Assembly: GCF_058153355.1 (NCBI RefSeq)
Contig: NZ_CM177019.1
Length of the DNA stretch: 64,000 nt
Direction: 5' to 3' (one strand)
Position numbers and translations under genes: made by a program. Below, in pieces: positions 52,707-57,299 of the stretch; the first letter of the stretch is position 1; the number at the start of each line of letters is the position of its first letter. The notes under the pieces were generated by a model. The model was given only the letters and a program-made list of their open reading frames with translations, was not told the origin of the DNA and ran no database searches.

Positions 52707-52780
52707 GCGGGCGTAGTTCAATGGTAGAACGAGAGCTTCCCAAGCTCTATACGAGGGTTCGATTCCCTTCGTCCGCTCCA
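52707..52780 (+). tRNA. glyU: tRNA-Gly (anticodon CCC)
   Basis: 74 nt, GCGGGCGTAGTTCAATGGTAGAACGAGAGCTTCCCAAGCTCTATACGAGGGTTCGATTCCCTTCGTCCGCTCCA. It folds into a cloverleaf with CCC at 52739-52741 and an encoded CCA end. Confidence 0.95.
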
Positions 52781-52944: not shown

Positions 52945-54309
52945 ATGCTGCTTTCAGACCTTGCCATCAGGCGCGCGAAGCCGAAAGAAAAGGCTTATAC
53001 ACTCAATGACGGTAACGGGCTTTCGTTGCTCATTGAGCCGAACGGTTCGAAAGGGTGGCGACTGCGCTACAGGTTTGCAGGAAAGCCCAAAATGTTGTCG
53101 TTGGGTGTGTACCCTGATGTGTCTCTGTCTGATGCCAGGGCGGCAAGGGATGAGGCTAAAAGGCTTCTTGCTGGTGGTATAAATCCAAGTGAGGCCAGAA
53201 AAGCCCAAAAGCGAGAACAGGCGAGCAAATTTGGCAATACTTTTGAGGGTATCGCTCGCGAATGGTACGAAAAGCGGATCGACAGGTGGTCATCGTCATA
53301 CGCCGAGGAAATGATCGAGACGTTTGAAAAAGACGTTTTTCCGTACATTGGCGGTAGGCCGATCGCAGAAATTAAGCCGATGGAATTGCTGGCGGTTCTT
53401 TCCCGTCTTAATGACCGTGGTGCGACTGAAAAATTGCGTAAGGTTCGCCAGCGATGTGGCGAGGTGTTCCGGTACGCAATCATCACCGGACGCGCCGAAT
53501 ATAATCCAGCCCCTGACCTGGTGAGCGCATTTGCTCCACATAAAAAAGAGCATTACGCCTGTTTGAAGGCCGATGAACTGCCGGAATTTTTCCGCGTTTT
53601 TAATACGTACACCGGAAGCCAGATCGTCAAACTGGCAATGCGGCTATTAATTCTGACAGGTGTCAGACCCGGGGAATTACGGCAGGCAGAATGGCGGGAG
53701 ATCGATTTTGATAATCGTTTGTGGGAAGTGCCTAAAGAACGAATGAAGATGCGCCGTCCGCATTGCGTGCCATTACCAGAACAGGCGATAAAAATACTGG
53801 AGCAGTTAAAAAACATGACAGGTCAGTATCAGTTTATTTTCCCCGGTCGTATTCACCACAGTAAACCAATGAGTGAAATGGCAATGAATGTGCTCATTCG
53901 TCGTATTGGCTACGCCGGGCGCGTTACTGGTCATGGATTCCGGCACACCATGAGCACCATTTTGCATGAGCAGGGCTATAACACCGCGTGGATAGAGACA
54001 CAGCTTGCGCACGCCGATAAAAACTCAATTCGTGGCACATACAACCATGCGCAATATCTGGATGGCAGACGCGAAATGCTCCAGTGGTATGCCGACTATA
54101 TGGATTCGCTCGAGCATGGCGGAAATGTGGTGCATGGTGAGTTCGGAAAATGCGGGGGACTGGTTGAGTATACAGTAGTAGACTTTGAGCGACTAAAAAC
54201 GGCTGTGTCTAGGGTCGCTCCTGAAAACCCGTACACCTCTGCGGGCTGGCACAGCCACTATGGTAGAGGGCGCGAGGTGACGCGTGATCGATATTGCCGA
54301 ATTACTTAA
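52945..54309 (+). CDS. int: P4-type (DUF4102-containing) tyrosine integrase
   Basis: MLLSDLAIRRAKPKEKAYTLNDGNGLSLLIEPNGSKGWRLRYRF... is a typical P4-family N-terminus. The C-terminus has HGFRHT...AHA...RGTY catalytic residues. It lies 165 bp downstream of a tRNA gene. Confidence 0.9.
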   Translation: MLLSDLAIRRAKPKEKAYTLNDGNGLSLLIEPNGSKGWRLRYRFAGKPKMLSLGVYPDVSLSDARAARDEAKRLLAGGINPSEARKAQKREQASKFGNTFEGIAREWYEKRIDRWSSSYAEEMIETFEKDVFPYIGGRPIAEIKPMELLAVLSRLNDRGATEKLRKVRQRCGEVFRYAIITGRAEYNPAPDLVSAFAPHKKEHYACLKADELPEFFRVFNTYTGSQIVKLAMRLLILTGVRPGELRQAEWREIDFDNRLWEVPKERMKMRRPHCVPLPEQAIKILEQLKNMTGQYQFIFPGRIHHSKPMSEMAMNVLIRRIGYAGRVTGHGFRHTMSTILHEQGYNTAWIETQLAHADKNSIRGTYNHAQYLDGRREMLQWYADYMDSLEHGGNVVHGEFGKCGGLVEYTVVDFERLKTAVSRVAPENPYTSAGWHSHYGRGREVTRDRYCRIT

Positions 54310-54604
54310 CGCAGAAAAGAATAATTTCATTAGCCTGAGAGAGTTAATAGAGCGTATTAAATTATCTCAACCGAAAGCTACTACATCCCAGATAGTAAGT
54401 TTTCTTTATCAGACGCGGCAGAAATTACCCGAATGGGTTAAGTGGGATGAAATGATGGGCATTGAGCAAACATCGGAGAATCCTTTTGATGGGGATTGGT
54501 CTTTATCAGAGGTTCTTGAAGGCATTTTAAGACTAGGCTTTGTGCCAGAGGTTGAAGATTCTGTACCCCTCGCTATCGATGATAGCGACGATATTCCGTA
54601 TTGA
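54284..54604 (+). CDS. hypothetical acidic protein (106 aa), island cargo
   Basis: GTG-start ORF overlapping the int 3' end. AT-rich relative to its flanks. I recognise no family. Confidence 0.45.
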   Translation: MIDIAELLNAEKNNFISLRELIERIKLSQPKATTSQIVSFLYQTRQKLPEWVKWDEMMGIEQTSENPFDGDWSLSEVLEGILRLGFVPEVEDSVPLAIDDSDDIPY

Positions 54605-54623
54605 TGAAGACTTAAGGTGAATT

Positions 54624-55067
54624 ATGGCAGATGAAGTTTATTTGGCTCGTGCTTGTGATAAGTATGGTTTTCGTCGAGCAGAGCTTAAAGAATTTGCTGA
54701 AAAACTAGGGGTTAATTTATTTTCCCCAATGGATGAAATAACCCAGTCCATTCCTGAGGTTGCTGCTAGTGATTCTTTGAATAATGGGCCGACTGTTGAT
54801 GAATTACGTGCGGAAATTGCTTTACTTAAAGCGCGAATTGAAGAACTTGAAAGCGAACGACCAATTCTCTTAAATAAATACAGGGATAATGATCCGCTAT
54901 ATCTGGCTATCGAGATTAGAAACAGAGAGTGGGCCAATTACGACCCGGAGAATGATCGCGCCACCAGGGGAAACCAGGGCGCGATTACTACTGAGCTTGA
55001 AAAACGAGGTTTTACCTCCCGACAGGCCGCATCTATTGAGCTTGTCGCCTGTCCTATCAAACGATGA
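54624..55067 (+). CDS. hypothetical coiled-coil protein (147 aa), island cargo
   Basis: ATG preceded by AAGGTGA. The central segment ELRAEIALLKARIEELESE looks like a coiled coil. I recognise no family. Confidence 0.5.
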   Translation: MADEVYLARACDKYGFRRAELKEFAEKLGVNLFSPMDEITQSIPEVAASDSLNNGPTVDELRAEIALLKARIEELESERPILLNKYRDNDPLYLAIEIRNREWANYDPENDRATRGNQGAITTELEKRGFTSRQAASIELVACPIKR

Positions 55068-55072
55068 AGCCT

Positions 55073-55220
55073 TACCCTAGAGGTATCTCATGTTTTGTTC
55101 GCGTCTCACCCTAAGGGTAATCAGACCTCACCCTTAGGGTATTTTTGTATGCTTTCCCATCAATTTTACTATTACCCTTAGGGTAAAAATATTCCCGATT
55201 ACCATTAGGCCTGAGGGTAT
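55073..55220. repeat. array of 13-bp palindromes YACCCTWAGGGTA (4 good copies + 1 degenerate) upstream of alpA
   Basis: Copies at 55073-55085 (TACCCTAGAGGTA), 55107-55119 (CACCCTAAGGGTA), 55129-55141 (CACCCTTAGGGTA) and 55173-55185 (TACCCTTAGGGTA). A degenerate copy lies at about 55200-55220. Confidence 0.8.
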
Positions 55221-55287
55221 GAAAATATTCGTTATTTCTGTGCCATGATTACCTCGTCAAATTGAGTAGACGTTATGAGGTAAATAT

Positions 55288-55485
55288 ATGTCAAATACGC
55301 TTATTCGTTTAACGGAAGTTCAGCGTAGAACTGGATATAGCAAGGCATGGATTTATCGCCTTATGGGGCAAGGTAAATTTCCTGCATCAGTTAAAATTGG
55401 CTCGCGAGCTATTGCTTTCGTTGAGAGTGAAATTGACGAGTGGATTAATCAGCGTATTGCTGAATCACGCGGAACAGCTACCTGA
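55288..55485 (+). CDS. alpA: AlpA-family (MerR-like wHTH) prophage transcriptional regulator / excisionase-like protein
   Basis: 65 aa, LIRLTEVQRRTGYSKAWIYRLMGQGKFPASVKIGSRAIAFVESEIDEWI, matching the AlpA/Phage_AlpA pattern. Confidence 0.88.
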   Translation: MSNTLIRLTEVQRRTGYSKAWIYRLMGQGKFPASVKIGSRAIAFVESEIDEWINQRIAESRGTAT

Positions 55486-55563
55486 TTAAATGGCTACGGG
55501 GCCAGAAGCCCCAGCTATCCACCAGCAAATAAAAAGTAACTTAATTCGATAGCAGGAGTTTTT

Positions 55564-56364
55564 ATGAAATTTCCAAAAACGCCCATACAGGGGCAGGGCT
55601 TCGTTCGGCTTGAAAACCAGAATCTGCAAAATTTTGGCAAAATTATCCCGGTTATTTCCGGCGTTATTGGCGGGCGTGAAACCAATATTGTTAGCGCCAG
55701 AGCGTTGCATAAGGCGCTCGGGGTAGGCCGTGATTTCACAACCTGGATTAAAGTACGCATTGATGAGTACGGATTTAAAAAGGGCGTGGATTTTGAATTC
55801 GTAGAAAATTTGACCTCCCCCAATCCGGTGAGCGCAAAATCTCGCCAACGTATAGAGCACGACTACCTGAGCACTATCAACATGGCGAAAGAACTGGCGA
55901 TGGTCGAACGCACCGAACAGGGCCGCGCCGTTCGTCAGTATTTCATCAAATGCGAGGAGGAGCTACACAAGGTAGCGCCTGTGCGTTCCGCAGCGTTACG
56001 CCGGGAACTGAAAGCCCGTATCACTGTTGCCAGCTACTTTAAGCCAATGTGCGCCGCGCTGGAGGCGTACCGGGCAGAACTGGGTAAAAACACTCTACAG
56101 CACCACTACACCACGGAAGCTAATATGCTGGCGCGTATCGTGCTGGGTGGCATGACTGCAAAACAGTGGGCACTGGCGAACGGCATCACAAGCGAACCAC
56201 GCGACCACATGAGCACGTTGCAGCTTGAGCACCTTTCTTACCTTGAGCAGAGCAATATCACGCTGATTGAGTTAGGCCAGGACTACCACCAGCGGAAAGC
56301 TGAATTAATTCGTCTTTCGCAGCGCTGGTTAGCCCGTCGCATGGAGGAAAACAACCATGTGTAA
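55564..56364 (+). CDS. phage antirepressor-family protein (AntA/AntB-type N-terminal domain)
   Basis: 266 aa. VSARALHKALGVGRDFTTWIKVRIDEYGFKKGVDF ... MAKELAMVERTEQGRAVRQYFIKCE is typical of AntA/AntB antirepressors. Confidence 0.75.
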   Translation: MKFPKTPIQGQGFVRLENQNLQNFGKIIPVISGVIGGRETNIVSARALHKALGVGRDFTTWIKVRIDEYGFKKGVDFEFVENLTSPNPVSAKSRQRIEHDYLSTINMAKELAMVERTEQGRAVRQYFIKCEEELHKVAPVRSAALRRELKARITVASYFKPMCAALEAYRAELGKNTLQHHYTTEANMLARIVLGGMTAKQWALANGITSEPRDHMSTLQLEHLSYLEQSNITLIELGQDYHQRKAELIRLSQRWLARRMEENNHV

Positions 56365-57018
56365 CGCTCTGACCGTTACAAAAAGAGAAAGCGCCCCGTT
56401 GCCGGAGCGCCTTTGTGAACGAATAGCCTACTGCGCCATATTGCTTACTGTCTACGAGGCAGATTATAGCGTTGTGGTCGCACAGAGTGAAGGCACTGAT
56501 CACCGTTACTACAGCACGCCAGAAATGCAGAATATTTTGCTGCAAAATGCCGCTGGCCACGCTGTCCGGAAAGCAAAAAATTTTGCTGGTGGCGCGACTG
56601 ATACGATTTTTTCTGGTCGCCAGGTGCTGATCAATCTGATGTCTGATTTCGTTCTGGATAAAACAAAGGCGACCGCAGAGGGCCACCAGTGGGAAAGCTA
56701 CACACTTGAACACATCGCCAACAATGCCAGATTTGCGGCTGGTGGGCAATGTGATCAGTGTGTTGGCTTGCTGGTGGGCTGTTCGTCTGGTTCAGTCCGT
56801 TGCCATGCATGGAGTGAACGCATTTTCCAGGAATACTCTTTGAGGTACTTCTCAAGAGCAAACGCACACGGGGCGAATCTCTCCGGTTCATGTTCGTTTA
56901 CCGCATTTTTGCGTTGTTTTTTCCTGGATGAGGATAATTTCTTTAATGATTTGTCAGTCATCGTATATACCTGTAACCCTGTGCGCCACAGTTCACTGCA
57001 CCACGGCGCTGATGGTGA

Positions 57019-57198
57019 TTACTCTGATTCTTTGGCCTTGCGGCGCTGGCGGCGTTTGATCTCACCTTCAAGTGCCGAAACGATAAATTGTCCAGTGCTT
57101 TCGCCTTCTTCCTTTAAACTTTCTACAGCGTCAGCTATTGCATGGGGTACTCGTGCCTCAAGTTTTTTTGATTTTCCATTAACTGCTTTCGTTGCCAT
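57019..57198 (-). CDS. small ribbon-helix-helix-like DNA-binding protein (59 aa), putative island repressor
   Basis: MATKAVNGKSKKLEARVPHAIADAVESLKEEGESTGQFIVSALEGEIKRRQRRKAKESE shows a beta-strand/helix/helix pattern typical of Arc/CopG RHH proteins. It is divergent from an iteron-flanked promoter. Confidence 0.6.
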   Translation of the reverse strand: MATKAVNGKSKKLEARVPHAIADAVESLKEEGESTGQFIVSALEGEIKRRQRRKAKESE

Positions 57199-57219
57199 AT
57201 CTGATTCCCTTGTTATTAG

Positions 57220-57299
57220 GTGGCTGACAGTATACACACAAGAAAATGGAAAAACACTATTGACGTGGCTGACACCTGTTACTAGTATAGTGGCTGACA
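57220..57299 (+). promoter_or_regulatory. sigma70 promoter TTGACG-N17-TAGTAT embedded in three GTGGCTGACA direct repeats
   Basis: -35 at 57260-57265 and -10 at 57283-57288, with an exact 17-nt spacer. GTGGCTGACA occurs at 57220-57229, 57265-57274 and 57290-57299. Confidence 0.7.

What the first reader, a model, noticed from the sequence alone, without database searches (positions are those of the whole stretch)
54284..55067. AT-rich two-gene cargo immediately downstream of the P4-type integrase (position of satellite-encoded defence hotspots)
Two orphan ORFs follow the integrase and precede alpA. One is 106 aa and acidic. The other is 147 aa with a central coiled coil. Their sequence is visibly more AT-rich than the flanks. 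In P4-like satellites the integrase-proximal region is a variable cargo hotspot that often holds compact anti-phage systems. I recognise no family for either protein.
Basis: inference. Interest (0 to 1): 0.45.

Follow-up and report, generated by a model that had tools for sequence, protein, structure and literature searches.

The report
Satellite gene pair with SSB-tail mimic
The two small genes after the integrase are not orphans but a conserved pair of phage-satellite islands: one protein ends in a copy of the tail that the cell's single-stranded-DNA-binding protein uses to recruit enzymes, and the other most likely binds a phased array of palindromes in front of the island's master activator gene alpA, so the pair looks like an on/off control module, not a defence cargo.

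Summary
There are two intact co-directional ORFs (106 aa, pI 4.2; 147 aa with a confident central helix), and they are more AT-rich (GC 0.41/0.44) than their flanks (about 0.50).

The island is a Gram-negative PICI-type satellite at tRNA-Gly, not a P4-type one. Neither protein is an orphan.
- ORF1 belongs to a family of 77 protein clusters, of which 69 end in ..IPF. Most carry EPPMDFDDDIPF, the tip of E. coli SSB. The window copy ends DDSDDIPY.
- ORF2 belongs to a family with a variable N-terminus, a coiled coil and a conserved C-terminal helical domain. In some E. coli islands it is fused to an ORF1-like domain.

The int–alpA slot is variable, with at least 8 protein families. Each C-terminal domain type comes with its own repeat array between its stop codon and the conserved alpA leader. 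For ORF2 this is ACCCTNAGGGT, at fixed positions spaced in multiples of about 11 bp.

Best reading, inferred and not shown: ORF2 is a dimeric DNA-binding regulator of alpA, and ORF1 is its partner carrying an SSB-tail decoy. There are no PADLOC, Pfam or fold matches. Defence is not excluded.

The parts
52707..52780 (+). tRNA-Gly(CCC), glyU: attachment site of the island
   Evidence: ARAGORN and Rfam tRNA. The same xdhA-actS-tRNA-Gly-int context is seen in L001 and L094-L098.
52945..54309 (+). P4-type tyrosine integrase. Its normal stop (TGA at 54157-54159) is mutated to GGA, giving a 454-aa read-through product that overlaps the int-alpA RNA and the start of ORF1.
   Evidence: Pfam domains. 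The alignment with L001 and L002 shows GGGTGA changed to GGGGGA. Int is 404 aa in L094-L097 and 454 aa in L098.
54202..54269 (+). int-alpA RNA motif (Rfam RF02996): the conserved leader immediately 5' of the slot gene and the left border of the swappable cassette
   Evidence: 45.5 bits against a gathering score of 35.8, E 1.6e-8, full-length match. It is found in 12 of 16 other loci, and in those where I worked out the slot gene's start it ends 13-19 nt before it (with ORF coordinates).
54284..54604 (+). ORF1 ('A'): a 106-aa acidic protein with a helical N-terminal domain and a disordered acidic tail ending DDSDDIPY, a variant of the SSB C-terminal tip
   Evidence: It belongs to a family of 77 clusters, 69 of which end in ..IPF, most with EPPMDFDDDIPF. 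The tail of the family profile matches the C-terminus of E. coli SSB chains in the PDB. The AF2 model has helices 4-10, 18-28, 34-43 and 74-84, and pLDDT below 50 at 53-72 and 89-100.
54624..55067 (+). ORF2 ('B'): a 147-aa protein with an N-terminal YGFRRxEL..FAxKLG motif, a coiled coil at about residues 58-78, and a conserved C-terminal three-helix domain ending VACPIKR. It is the putative operator-binding regulator.
   Evidence: 76 homologues, the family alignment, the AF2 model and 84 clusters in the exhaustive search, always with the conserved part C-terminal. dN/dS is 0.15.
55074..55218 (.). Array of five ACCCT-N-AGGGT palindromes. Three are exact (55108-55118, 55130-55140, 55174-55184) and two are degenerate (55074-55084, 55208-55218). 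Their centres lie at -209, -175, -153, -109 and -75 from the alpA ATG.
   Evidence: the repeat finder. There are 3 exact matches in the 64-kb window against 0.02 expected, all in this stretch. The positions are conserved across genera and the spacings cluster at 22-23, 32-34, 42-44 and 55 bp. The array is present only where an ORF2-type C-terminal domain is encoded upstream.
55251..55281 (+). Conserved alpA leader hairpin whose 3' arm contains the Shine-Dalgarno GAGG (55277-55280): the right border of the cassette
   Evidence: RNAalifold on 13 loci predicts 9 pairs, 2 of them with compensatory changes.
55288..55485 (+). alpA, the master activator of Gram-negative PICIs
   Evidence: PF05930, E 2.4e-19. 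Its role is described in PMC6092414 and PMC11773190.

Best explanation
ORF1 and ORF2, the palindrome array downstream of them and the int-alpA RNA leader upstream form one exchangeable control cassette of a PICI-type phage satellite.

ORF2 most likely dimerises through its coiled coil. Its conserved C-terminal helical domain most likely recognises the phased ACCCT-N-AGGGT sites that run from its own stop codon into the alpA promoter region. In this way it would gate transcription of alpA, the activator that starts the satellite cycle. I consider repression or a roadblock in the quiescent island more likely than activation.

ORF1 is ORF2's partner; in some E. coli islands the two are one polypeptide. 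ORF1 carries a flexible acidic tail that copies the SSB C-terminal tip. That tail would let it dock into an SSB-tail pocket on a host, phage or island protein, or on ORF2 itself.

Shown: family membership, synteny, the tail motif, the fusion forms, and the exclusive association and fixed placement of the repeat arrays. Inferred: DNA binding by ORF2, the direction of regulation, the ORF1-ORF2 contact, and any coupling to helper-phage replication.
For: 1. Conserved module. The order int-A(about 100-120 aa)-B(about 145-155 aa)-alpA is found in Salmonella and in Kluyvera, Pantoea, Raoultella, Symbiopectobacterium and Orbaceae.
2. Rosetta-stone fusions. E. coli proteins of 243-257 aa join an ORF1-like N-terminus to an ORF2-like C-terminus and lack the tail.
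3. Tail. 69 of 77 ORF1-family clusters end in ..IPF, and most carry EPPMDFDDDIPF. The profile tail aligns to SSB chains 1eqq_A and 7f2n_A and to the DnaG-SSB chimera 6cbr. The tail persists even where the rest of the protein is about 20% identical (Orbaceae), and on A' proteins paired with a different B' (L081, L086).
4. Operators follow the C-terminal domain, not AlpA, Int or the N-terminus.
- All 39 AlpA loci with an ORF2-type gene have 2-5 ACCCTNAGGGT sites upstream of alpA. The 38 without it have none, including L036-L040, whose AlpA is 97% identical.
- The family-by-motif matrix is exclusive: B n=40, F2 n=12 (GGTGG/CCACC), F4 n=4 (CGCAATTGCG), F1c n=8 ((C/T)TTCCA).
- A'+B' pairs with an F1c-type C-terminus use the F1c repeats.
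- Two different N-terminal types of F2 share the F2 repeats.
- The divergent Orbaceae B goes with a changed palindrome, ACTATNATAGT.
- The swap is confined to the slot gene plus its repeats, on a shared alpA-antA backbone.
5. Site centres are fixed relative to the alpA ATG across genera and are spaced in multiples of about 11 bp. The proximal site abuts a -10-like TATGAA (sequence).
6. The C-terminal domains of the B and F2 families are homologous (hhalign probability 84%, E 8e-6).
7. ORF2 is under purifying selection (dN/dS 0.15).
8. The literature leaves this role open. PMC6092414 says a global repressor of Gram-negative PICIs is 'unclear', and that helper phage induces alpA by an unidentified route.
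Against: - The protein-motif link is a correlation. The F2, F4 and F1c motifs were defined after the fact on the same loci. Many loci are near-identical, and no phylogenetic correction was made.
- EcCIMP1 has no such gene and no such array, yet its alpA is still induced by helper phage (PMC11773190). So the cassette cannot be the universal sensor.
- PICI 5' ends are known to carry immune systems (PMC11364771).
- The window's tail deviates from the family: the terminal residue is Tyr and there is no DF. The fused forms lack the tail altogether.
- The ORF1 model has low confidence (pLDDT 57).
- No sigma-70-like promoter was found in 54050-55600, so promoter overlap is only a guess.
Confidence: 0.5

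Rival explanations
1. Anti-phage defence cargo. The pair would be a compact immune or abortive-infection system carried in the PICI 5' hotspot. ORF2 would sense a phage component, and ORF1's SSB tail would act as the effector by jamming the SSB interactome. Alternatively the pair could do both jobs, as SaPI2 Stl2 does, acting as repressor and immunity factor at once.
For: - The slot is highly variable on a constant backbone, with conserved flanks, as in defence hotspots.
- PICIs are reported to encode immune systems at their 5' ends (PMC11364771).
- The abstract of PMC11846896 reports that Stl2 gives antiviral immunity.
- The genes are AT-rich.
- The pair is absent from 50,697 phage genomes.
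Against: - No PADLOC hit for ORF1, ORF2 or nine other slot occupants.
- No enzymatic or effector domain was detected.
- A pure cargo gene does not explain a cognate, helically phased repeat array at fixed distances from the alpA start.
- The pair keeps its order and position across enterobacterial genera and Orbaceae, which is unlike mobile cargo.
Confidence: 0.2
2. Replication or maintenance accessory. The repeat array would be an iteron- or centromere-like site, ORF2 its binding protein, and ORF1 an adaptor whose SSB-like tail recruits primase, PriA or the Pol III chi subunit to the island.
For: - SSB tails are known recruiters of DnaG (the DnaG-SSB chimera 6cbr; abstract of PMC5872125); that they also recruit PriA and chi is from my own knowledge.
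- A phased array of repeats next to the gene for its binding protein is typical of iteron replicons.
- Intact islands encode a primase and an SSB.
Against: - PICI origins map downstream of pri-rep, not next to int (PMC6092414).
- The array positions are fixed relative to the alpA start codon.
- The island SSBs carry their own tails.
- The fused forms have no tail.
Confidence: 0.12
3. The repeats are binding sites for something else, such as a helper-phage regulator or a host factor. ORF1 and ORF2 would have an unrelated role and co-vary with the repeats only because both are tuned to the same helper phage.
For: - Helper phage induces alpA by an unknown factor (PMC6092414).
- ORF2 has no recognisable DNA-binding domain.
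Against: - The repeats track the C-terminal domain type through natural domain swaps: A'+B' pairs, the two N-terminal types of F2, and the Orbaceae variant.
- The match is exclusive in 64 of 64 loci of the four families.
Confidence: 0.1
4. Type II toxin-antitoxin pair, with an acidic antitoxin (ORF1) and a toxin (ORF2).
For: Two small adjacent genes, the first acidic, with 4-nt overlapping stop and start codons in Salmonella.
Against: - No TA family hit in Pfam, NCBIfam or PADLOC.
- Stable single-polypeptide fusions are common in E. coli.
- The repeats lie downstream of the genes, not at their own promoter.
Confidence: 0.03

Closest known systems
SaPI master repressor Stl (Gram-positive PICIs)
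   Same: It is encoded next to int and is extremely variable between islands. It sits upstream of the gene that starts the island cycle. The abstract of PMC11846896 says Stl2 also gives antiviral immunity. Here the analogue would be a variable protein with a cognate operator array in front of alpA.
   Different: There is no sequence or fold similarity. Stl is transcribed divergently and has an N-terminal HTH; here the genes are co-directional with alpA and specificity follows the C-terminal domain. Binding of a phage inducer is unknown here. PICIs without this cassette still respond to helper phage.
C-terminal tip of bacterial SSB (SSB-Ct, ..PMDFDDDIPF) and its interactome
   Same: Most ORF1-family proteins end with the same 8-12 residues after a Pro-rich, low-confidence linker.
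   Different: There is no OB fold and no PF00436 hit; the body is a small helical domain. The window copy ends ..DDSDDIPY. No binding partner has been shown.
int-alpA RNA motif (Rfam RF02996)
   Same: It is present at 54202-54269 and in 12 of 16 related loci. It is the one previously described element at this locus.
   Different: Rfam files it as an sRNA gene. Here it consistently ends 13-19 nt before the start codon of whatever gene fills the slot, so it behaves as that gene's leader. Its consensus resembles a terminator (a GC stem followed by a U-run).
Defence hotspots of P4-like satellites and of PICIs (Rousset 2022, PMC9122126; Fillol-Salom 2022, as cited in PMC11364771)
   Same: An integrase-proximal variable slot between conserved flanks in a phage satellite.
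   Different: The island lacks sid, delta and psu. No occupant matches a known defence model. The occupants share a modular architecture and carry cognate repeat arrays aimed at alpA.
EcCIMP1_002 (PMC11773190)
   Same: It is the only experimentally examined gene between int and alpA in an E. coli PICI. It was mis-annotated as UvrB-like and did not complement uvrB.
   Different: The EcCIMP1 gap is only 428 bp, has no ORF1 or ORF2 homologue by inspection of its ORFs and no ACCCTNAGGGT array.
Bro-N / KilA-N network of domain-swapping regulators in the PICI 'Bro zone' (PMC10111431)
   Same: Satellite-encoded, DNA-interactive proteins that evolve by domain shuffling.
   Different: They lie downstream of alpA. 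No Bro-N, KilA-N or ANT domain is present in ORF1 or ORF2.

Membership tests
Gram-negative PICI (EcCI-type phage satellite) | int, alpA and a primase gene, co-directional, at a tRNA or other specific att site, with no phage structural or lysis genes | tested here: met
   The window carries tRNA-Gly, int, alpA, antA and a truncated D5_N primase. Intact copies L094/L095 run int-A-B-alpA-antA-Ash-primase-SSB-ProQ-PerC with no structural genes.
Gram-negative PICI (EcCI-type phage satellite) | Induction and packaging by a helper phage | not testable with these tools
   This needs experiments. The window copy is probably defective: IS66 and IS110 insertions, a truncated primase and a lost integrase stop.
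P4-like satellite | The capsid-hijack module sid-delta-psu together with an alpha primase | tested here: not met
   No called gene of L094-L098 has a precomputed Pfam hit to such a family. P4-type C4 and isrK immunity RNAs and an Ash-family gene are present.
Known anti-phage defence system | A match to a PADLOC model | tested here: not met
   No hits for ORF1, ORF2, a fused homologue, an ORF1 homologue or eight other slot occupants. DefenseFinder was not available.
Known anti-phage defence system | Protection against phage when expressed | not testable with these tools
   Needs experiments.
SSB C-terminal tip (SSB-Ct) motif | The last residues of the chain are acidic and end in I-P-F with a free carboxylate, after a flexible linker | tested here: inconclusive
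   The family meets it: 69 of 77 clusters end ..IPF, most with DFDDDIPF. The window ORF1 ends DDSDDIPY and its close variant L093 ends DDSDIPY. The acidic run, Ile-Pro and a terminal aromatic are kept, but Phe is replaced by Tyr.
SSB C-terminal tip (SSB-Ct) motif | Binds the SSB-Ct pocket of a partner protein | not testable with these tools
Needs binding assays.
SSB protein family (PF00436, OB fold) | An OB-fold ssDNA-binding domain | tested here: not met
   None of the 67 ORF1-family members hits PF00436. The predicted secondary structure is helical.
Satellite master regulator (Stl-like in function) | Sequence-specific binding to operators in front of the gene that starts the island cycle | tested here: inconclusive
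   There is exclusive co-variation of C-terminal domain type with repeat type, and fixed, phased positions relative to alpA. No binding data and no DNA-binding fold were obtained.
Satellite master regulator (Stl-like in function) | Relieved or triggered by a helper-phage product | not testable with these tools
   Needs experiments.
Type II toxin-antitoxin | A recognisable toxin or antitoxin domain, with two separate polypeptides required | tested here: not met
   No family hits. Natural single-chain fusions exist.

The most novel reading that the evidence does not exclude
The int-alpA slot cassettes may be the missing helper-sensing switch of many Gram-negative PICIs. A coiled-coil dimer would sit on a phased operator array and hold alpA off. 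Its partner would display a decoy SSB tail. That tail would be captured when phage replication floods the cell with SSB-tail-binding proteins, or competed away from ORF2 when exposed SSB tails become abundant, and alpA would then be released. Islands would change helper specificity by swapping the whole cassette between the conserved int-alpA RNA leader and the alpA leader. This would be the first non-SSB protein shown to use the SSB tip as a regulatory signal.
Probability: 0.15. Interest if true: 0.85.

Novelty: new variant of a known kind. Interest (0 to 1): 0.6.

Why it matters
How Gram-negative PICIs stay silent and how helper phage switches on alpA is an open question. PMC6092414 states that a global repressor is 'unclear' and that the inducer is unidentified. 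This locus offers a concrete and cheaply testable candidate: an uncharacterised protein family with a defined predicted operator, ACCCT-N-AGGGT, at known positions in front of alpA. Natural cassette swaps serve as ready-made specificity controls.

Separately, a small non-OB protein carrying an exact copy of the SSB tip is a potential new way for a mobile element to tap, or to listen to, the host SSB interactome. That interactome is a drug-target interface (PMC5872125).

The analysis also gives a functional placement to the Rfam int-alpA RNA, as the leader of the slot gene. And it shows that 'hypothetical' genes at satellite hotspots should not be assumed to be defence cargo.

Tried and rejected
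- Family libraries. Pfam, NCBIfam, PHROGs and PADLOC gave nothing for ORF1 or ORF2 beyond coiled-coil noise.
- PDB sequence search. With the ORF2 profile there were only coiled-coil and chance hits. With the ORF1 profile, only the SSB tail and a weak MCM4 winged-helix match at E 0.03, which I treat as a lead and no more.
- The ORF1 model was too poor (pLDDT 57) to search with.
- A joint alignment of fused and split forms (A4) misaligned the tails with the ORF2 C-terminus and was dropped.
- 'ORF1+ORF2 is a recently frameshifted single gene' was rejected. ORF2 has its own RBS and ATG. The split form is the commoner one across Enterobacterales, and split copies are intact in a diverged variant.
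- 'The palindromes are AlpA sites' was rejected as the specificity determinant. AlpA 97-100% identical goes with different arrays.
- 'ORF1 supplies a tail for a tail-less island SSB' was rejected. The island SSBs end in ..DNIPF and ..DDVPF.
- Promoter scan: no sigma-70-like site in 54050-55600.
- Literature searches for SSB-tail mimics in satellites, or for a described int-alpA slot gene, found nothing. The key Cell 2022 paper on PICI immune systems is not in the library.
Full report
**What is in the sequence**

The window is E. coli-like chromosome: xdhA, actS, tRNA-Gly(CCC) at 52707-52780, then an island. The island begins with a P4-type tyrosine integrase (Pfam Arm-DNA-bind_3, Phage_int_M, Phage_integrase).

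- ORF1 is 54284-54604, with a GTG start and 106 aa.
- ORF2 is 54624-55067, with an ATG preceded by AAGGTG, and 147 aa.
- alpA follows at 55288-55485 and an antA-family gene at 55564-56364.
- ORF1 is acidic (pI 4.17). ORF2 has a confident central helix at residues 58-78.
- GC is 0.406 and 0.438, against 0.503 for int and 0.51 for the window.

Both are real genes. The identical ORF1, followed by a called 147-aa gene, sits at the same glyU site in several E. coli assemblies. A variant about 95% identical in DNA (L093) keeps both frames open, with an in-frame 3-nt deletion. dN/dS is 0.15 for ORF2 and 0.58 for ORF1.

**What kind of island it is**

Intact copies (L094, L095) read int-ORF1-ORF2-alpA-antA-DUF4222-Ash-...-DUF4222-primase (D5_N/DUF5906)-SSB-ProQ-PerC, with no structural genes and no precomputed Pfam hit to sid, delta or psu. 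This is the Gram-negative PICI layout described in PMC6092414 and PMC10111431, with P4-type C4 and isrK immunity RNAs. It is not a P4-like satellite.

The window copy is degraded. IS66 lies at 58075-60438. The primase (61149-62189) is cut by an IS110-family element. The integrase stop codon is mutated.

**Neither protein is an orphan**

ORF2 has 76 homologues across Enterobacterales. Most are stand-alone proteins of 144-155 aa, and some are 243-257 aa. An exhaustive HMMER search of 1.84 billion representatives finds only 84 clusters. The conserved part is always C-terminal, behind N-termini of varied length.

In Salmonella the gene follows a 101-aa gene, overlapping it by four bases, between int and alpA. 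The same int-A-B-alpA order holds in Kluyvera, Pantoea, Raoultella, Symbiopectobacterium and an Orbaceae genome.

In complete E. coli genomes the same slot usually holds one 255-265-aa gene. Its first residues resemble ORF1 and its last 60 or so are nearly identical to ORF2. So the two proteins occur both fused and split, which argues that they work together. No complete RefSeq E. coli genome carries the window's version. The ORF2-type 3' part with its downstream repeats is present in 147 of 5,426 genomes. Neither protein has a tblastn match in 50,697 phage genomes.

**The tail of ORF1**

A profile built from eight upstream partners retrieved 77 clusters.
- 69 end in ..IPF, and most end EPPMDFDDDIPF. 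The exceptions look truncated or frameshifted.
- Against the PDB, the last 17 profile positions align to the C-terminus of E. coli SSB (1eqq_A residues 162-178; 7f2n_A ..AAPSNEPPMDFDDDIPF) and to a DnaG-SSB chimera.
- The tail survives where the rest of the protein is about 20% identical (Orbaceae). It also survives on A' proteins that precede a different downstream protein (L081, L086).
- There is no OB fold: no PF00436 hit in 67 members, and a helical prediction with a disordered tail.

The window protein is the family's outlier. It ends DDSDDIPY, and its close variant ends DDSDIPY. The fused E. coli forms have lost the tail. That this peptide is the docking site for many SSB-interacting proteins is established knowledge; the DnaG case is in the abstract of PMC5872125. 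That ORF1 uses it so is inference.

**The DNA between ORF2 and alpA**

The 220-bp spacer holds three exact and two degenerate copies of ACCCT-N-AGGGT. The exact pattern occurs three times in the 64-kb window, all here, against 0.02 expected.

I fetched 80 viral-collection loci whose AlpA is 77-100% identical to the window's.
- Every locus with an ORF2-type gene upstream has 2-5 such sites within 300 bp of alpA. Every locus without one has none (39 against 38).
- L036-L040 have AlpA 97% identical, AntA 83-89% identical at the same spacing and, in L040, a 99%-identical integrase. Yet they carry a different slot gene and no such palindrome.
- EcCIMP1, a studied PICI, has a 428-bp int-alpA gap with neither the gene nor the array.

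So the palindromes belong with ORF2, not with AlpA or Int.

**The slot as a whole**

The loci without ORF2 carry other single genes of about 230-380 aa. They fall into families defined by their C-terminal domain. One of them, F2, is homologous to the ORF2 C-terminus (hhalign probability 84%, E 8e-6). Only DUF6387 is known to Pfam, and none hits PADLOC.

Each family has its own repeats between its stop codon and the conserved alpA leader.

| C-terminal family | Loci (n) | Repeat between stop codon and alpA leader | Copies |
|---|---|---|---|
| B (ORF2 type) | 40 | ACCCTNAGGGT | 2-5 |
| F2 | 12 | GGTGG/CCACC-containing repeats | 1-3 |
| F4 | 4 | ACCGCAATTGCGGT | 2 |
| F1c | 8 | (C/T)TTCCA direct repeats | 2-6 |

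No motif occurs in the other families.

Natural chimeras show which part sets the specificity.
- A' (with an SSB tail) plus B' with an F1c-type C-terminus uses the F1c repeats.
- Two unrelated N-terminal types of F2 share the F2 repeats.
- The divergent Orbaceae B goes with ACTATNATAGT.

The repeats therefore track the C-terminal domain.

For the ORF2 type, the site centres sit at about -75, -109, -152, -175 and -207 from the alpA ATG in different genera. Spacings cluster at 22-23, 32-34, 42-44 and 55 bp, which are multiples of about 11. The proximal site abuts a -10-like TATGAA, but no sigma-70 consensus promoter is detectable.

**Flanks of the cassette**

Rfam's int-alpA RNA (RF02996) matches 54202-54269. 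That is between the normal int stop and ORF1. It is found in 12 of 16 related loci, and in those where I worked out the slot gene's start it ends 13-19 nt before that start, whatever the gene's family (with ORF coordinates). On the other side, a hairpin that buries the alpA Shine-Dalgarno is conserved in 13 loci. The exchangeable unit is thus the slot gene or genes plus the repeat array, between two conserved RNA-structured flanks.

**Most likely mechanism**

ORF2 dimerises through the coiled coil. Its C-terminal three-helix domain reads the compact palindromes cooperatively on one face of the DNA and controls alpA. AlpA is the activator whose expression starts the PICI cycle and which helper phage induces by an unknown route (PMC6092414, PMC11773190). 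I judge repression or a roadblock more likely than activation, for three reasons: the slot genes are co-directional with alpA, no terminator is predicted on that strand, and the proximal site lies at the presumed core promoter.

ORF1 is ORF2's partner. Its tail either tethers it to an SSB-tail pocket (possibly on ORF2, which would explain why covalent fusions dispense with it) or links the module to host or phage SSB-interacting proteins. All of this is inference. I put about 0.5 on 'DNA-binding regulator of alpA', and less on any specific role for the tail.

**What argues against it, and the rivals**

- ORF2 has no recognisable DNA-binding fold or family.
- The associations are correlative and not phylogenetically corrected. 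The F2, F4 and F1c motifs were defined on the same loci.
- EcCIMP1 lacks the cassette but still responds to helper phage.
- PICI 5' ends are reported to carry immune systems (PMC11364771).

Defence (about 0.2) therefore stays open, possibly combined with regulation as reported for SaPI2 Stl2 (abstract of PMC11846896). A replication or maintenance role for the array and the tail (about 0.12), an unrelated binder of the repeats (about 0.1) and a toxin-antitoxin pair (about 0.03) are less likely, for the reasons given under each.

**Comparison with what is known, and novelty**

- In function the closest analogue is SaPI Stl. In sequence there is none.
- The tail equals the SSB tip, but the protein is not an SSB.
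- The only previously described element at the locus is the int-alpA RNA motif.
- I found no paper in the held library describing either protein family, an SSB-tail mimic in a satellite, or operators upstream of alpA. The Cell 2022 paper on PICI immune systems could not be read.

I rate this a new variant of a known kind: a satellite control module. It is interesting mainly because it turns an open question about Gram-negative PICI induction into a set of simple experiments.

Noticed in passing
window 54157-54159 (integrase 52945-54309): The integrase stop codon TGA is GGA here, so the ORF reads on for 50 codons, through the int-alpA RNA and 26 nt into ORF1. One other assembly (L098) shares this change. 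Four others, and all RefSeq relatives seen, have the normal 404-aa integrase.
   Followed up: partly
window 54202-54269 (+): Rfam int-alpA RNA (RF02996, 45.5 bits). In 12 of 16 related loci it lies just upstream of the slot gene, ending 13-19 nt before the start codon where I worked that out, so it looks like a cis-acting leader and not a free sRNA. The consensus is a GC stem enclosing two hairpins, followed by a U-run, which resembles a terminator.
   Followed up: partly
window 55251-55281 (+): A conserved hairpin in the alpA leader pairs the Shine-Dalgarno GAGG (55277-55280) with upstream sequence. It is predicted in 13 loci with little covariation, and may control alpA translation.
   Followed up: partly
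window 57493-57733 (+): P4-type immunity RNAs lie inside the island: isrK (57506-57583, 68.8 bits), C4 antisense RNA (57646-57733, 79.9 bits) and a sub-threshold c4-a1b1 target (57493-57545). They overlap the 3' part of a 539-aa ORF (56357-57976) that public gene calls label Phage_ASH. A YlcI/YnfO-like ORF lies on the opposite strand (57019-57372).
   Followed up: no
window 58075-60438 and 61149-63423: An IS66-family element (orfA, orfB and transposase) is inserted in the island. The D5_N primase gene (61149-62189, 346 aa against 584 aa in intact copies) is cut by an IS110-family transposase gene (62248-63423). The island is probably immobile.
   Followed up: partly
window 63558-63999: Two identical 78-aa ORFs (63558-63794 and 63763-63999) indicate a tandem duplication of about 205 bp at the end of the window.
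   Followed up: no
L081:757-2115 and L086 (IMG/VR loci): A second kind of split module. An ORF1-like protein ending ..IFDDNVPF or ..NFDDDIPF is followed by a 227-aa protein. That protein has an N-terminus like ORF2's (FDFxGFxRSEIEK) but a C-terminal domain of a different family (F1c), and it uses that family's (C/T)TTCCA direct repeats.
   Followed up: partly
L036-L092 (IMG/VR loci), int-alpA interval: At least seven further uncharacterised protein families fill the same slot, with distinct repeats upstream of alpA seen for six of them (for example ACCGCAATTGCGGT, ACCGGAA..TTCCGGT and GGAGTTATCA..TGATAACTCC). Only DUF6387 is known to Pfam.
   Followed up: partly
L095:15162-15509 and L003:16040-16435: The intact islands encode short SSBs (115-131 aa) that keep their own acidic tips (..GDNIPF, ..SDDVPF). 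An island can therefore carry two different proteins with SSB-type tails.
   Followed up: no
NZ_CP115821.1 (H36) and NZ_CM163382.1 (H38): RefSeq names some fused ORF2 homologues 'bZIP transcription factor' or 'coiled-coil domain-containing protein'. The names appear to derive only from the leucine-zipper-like helix.
   Followed up: no
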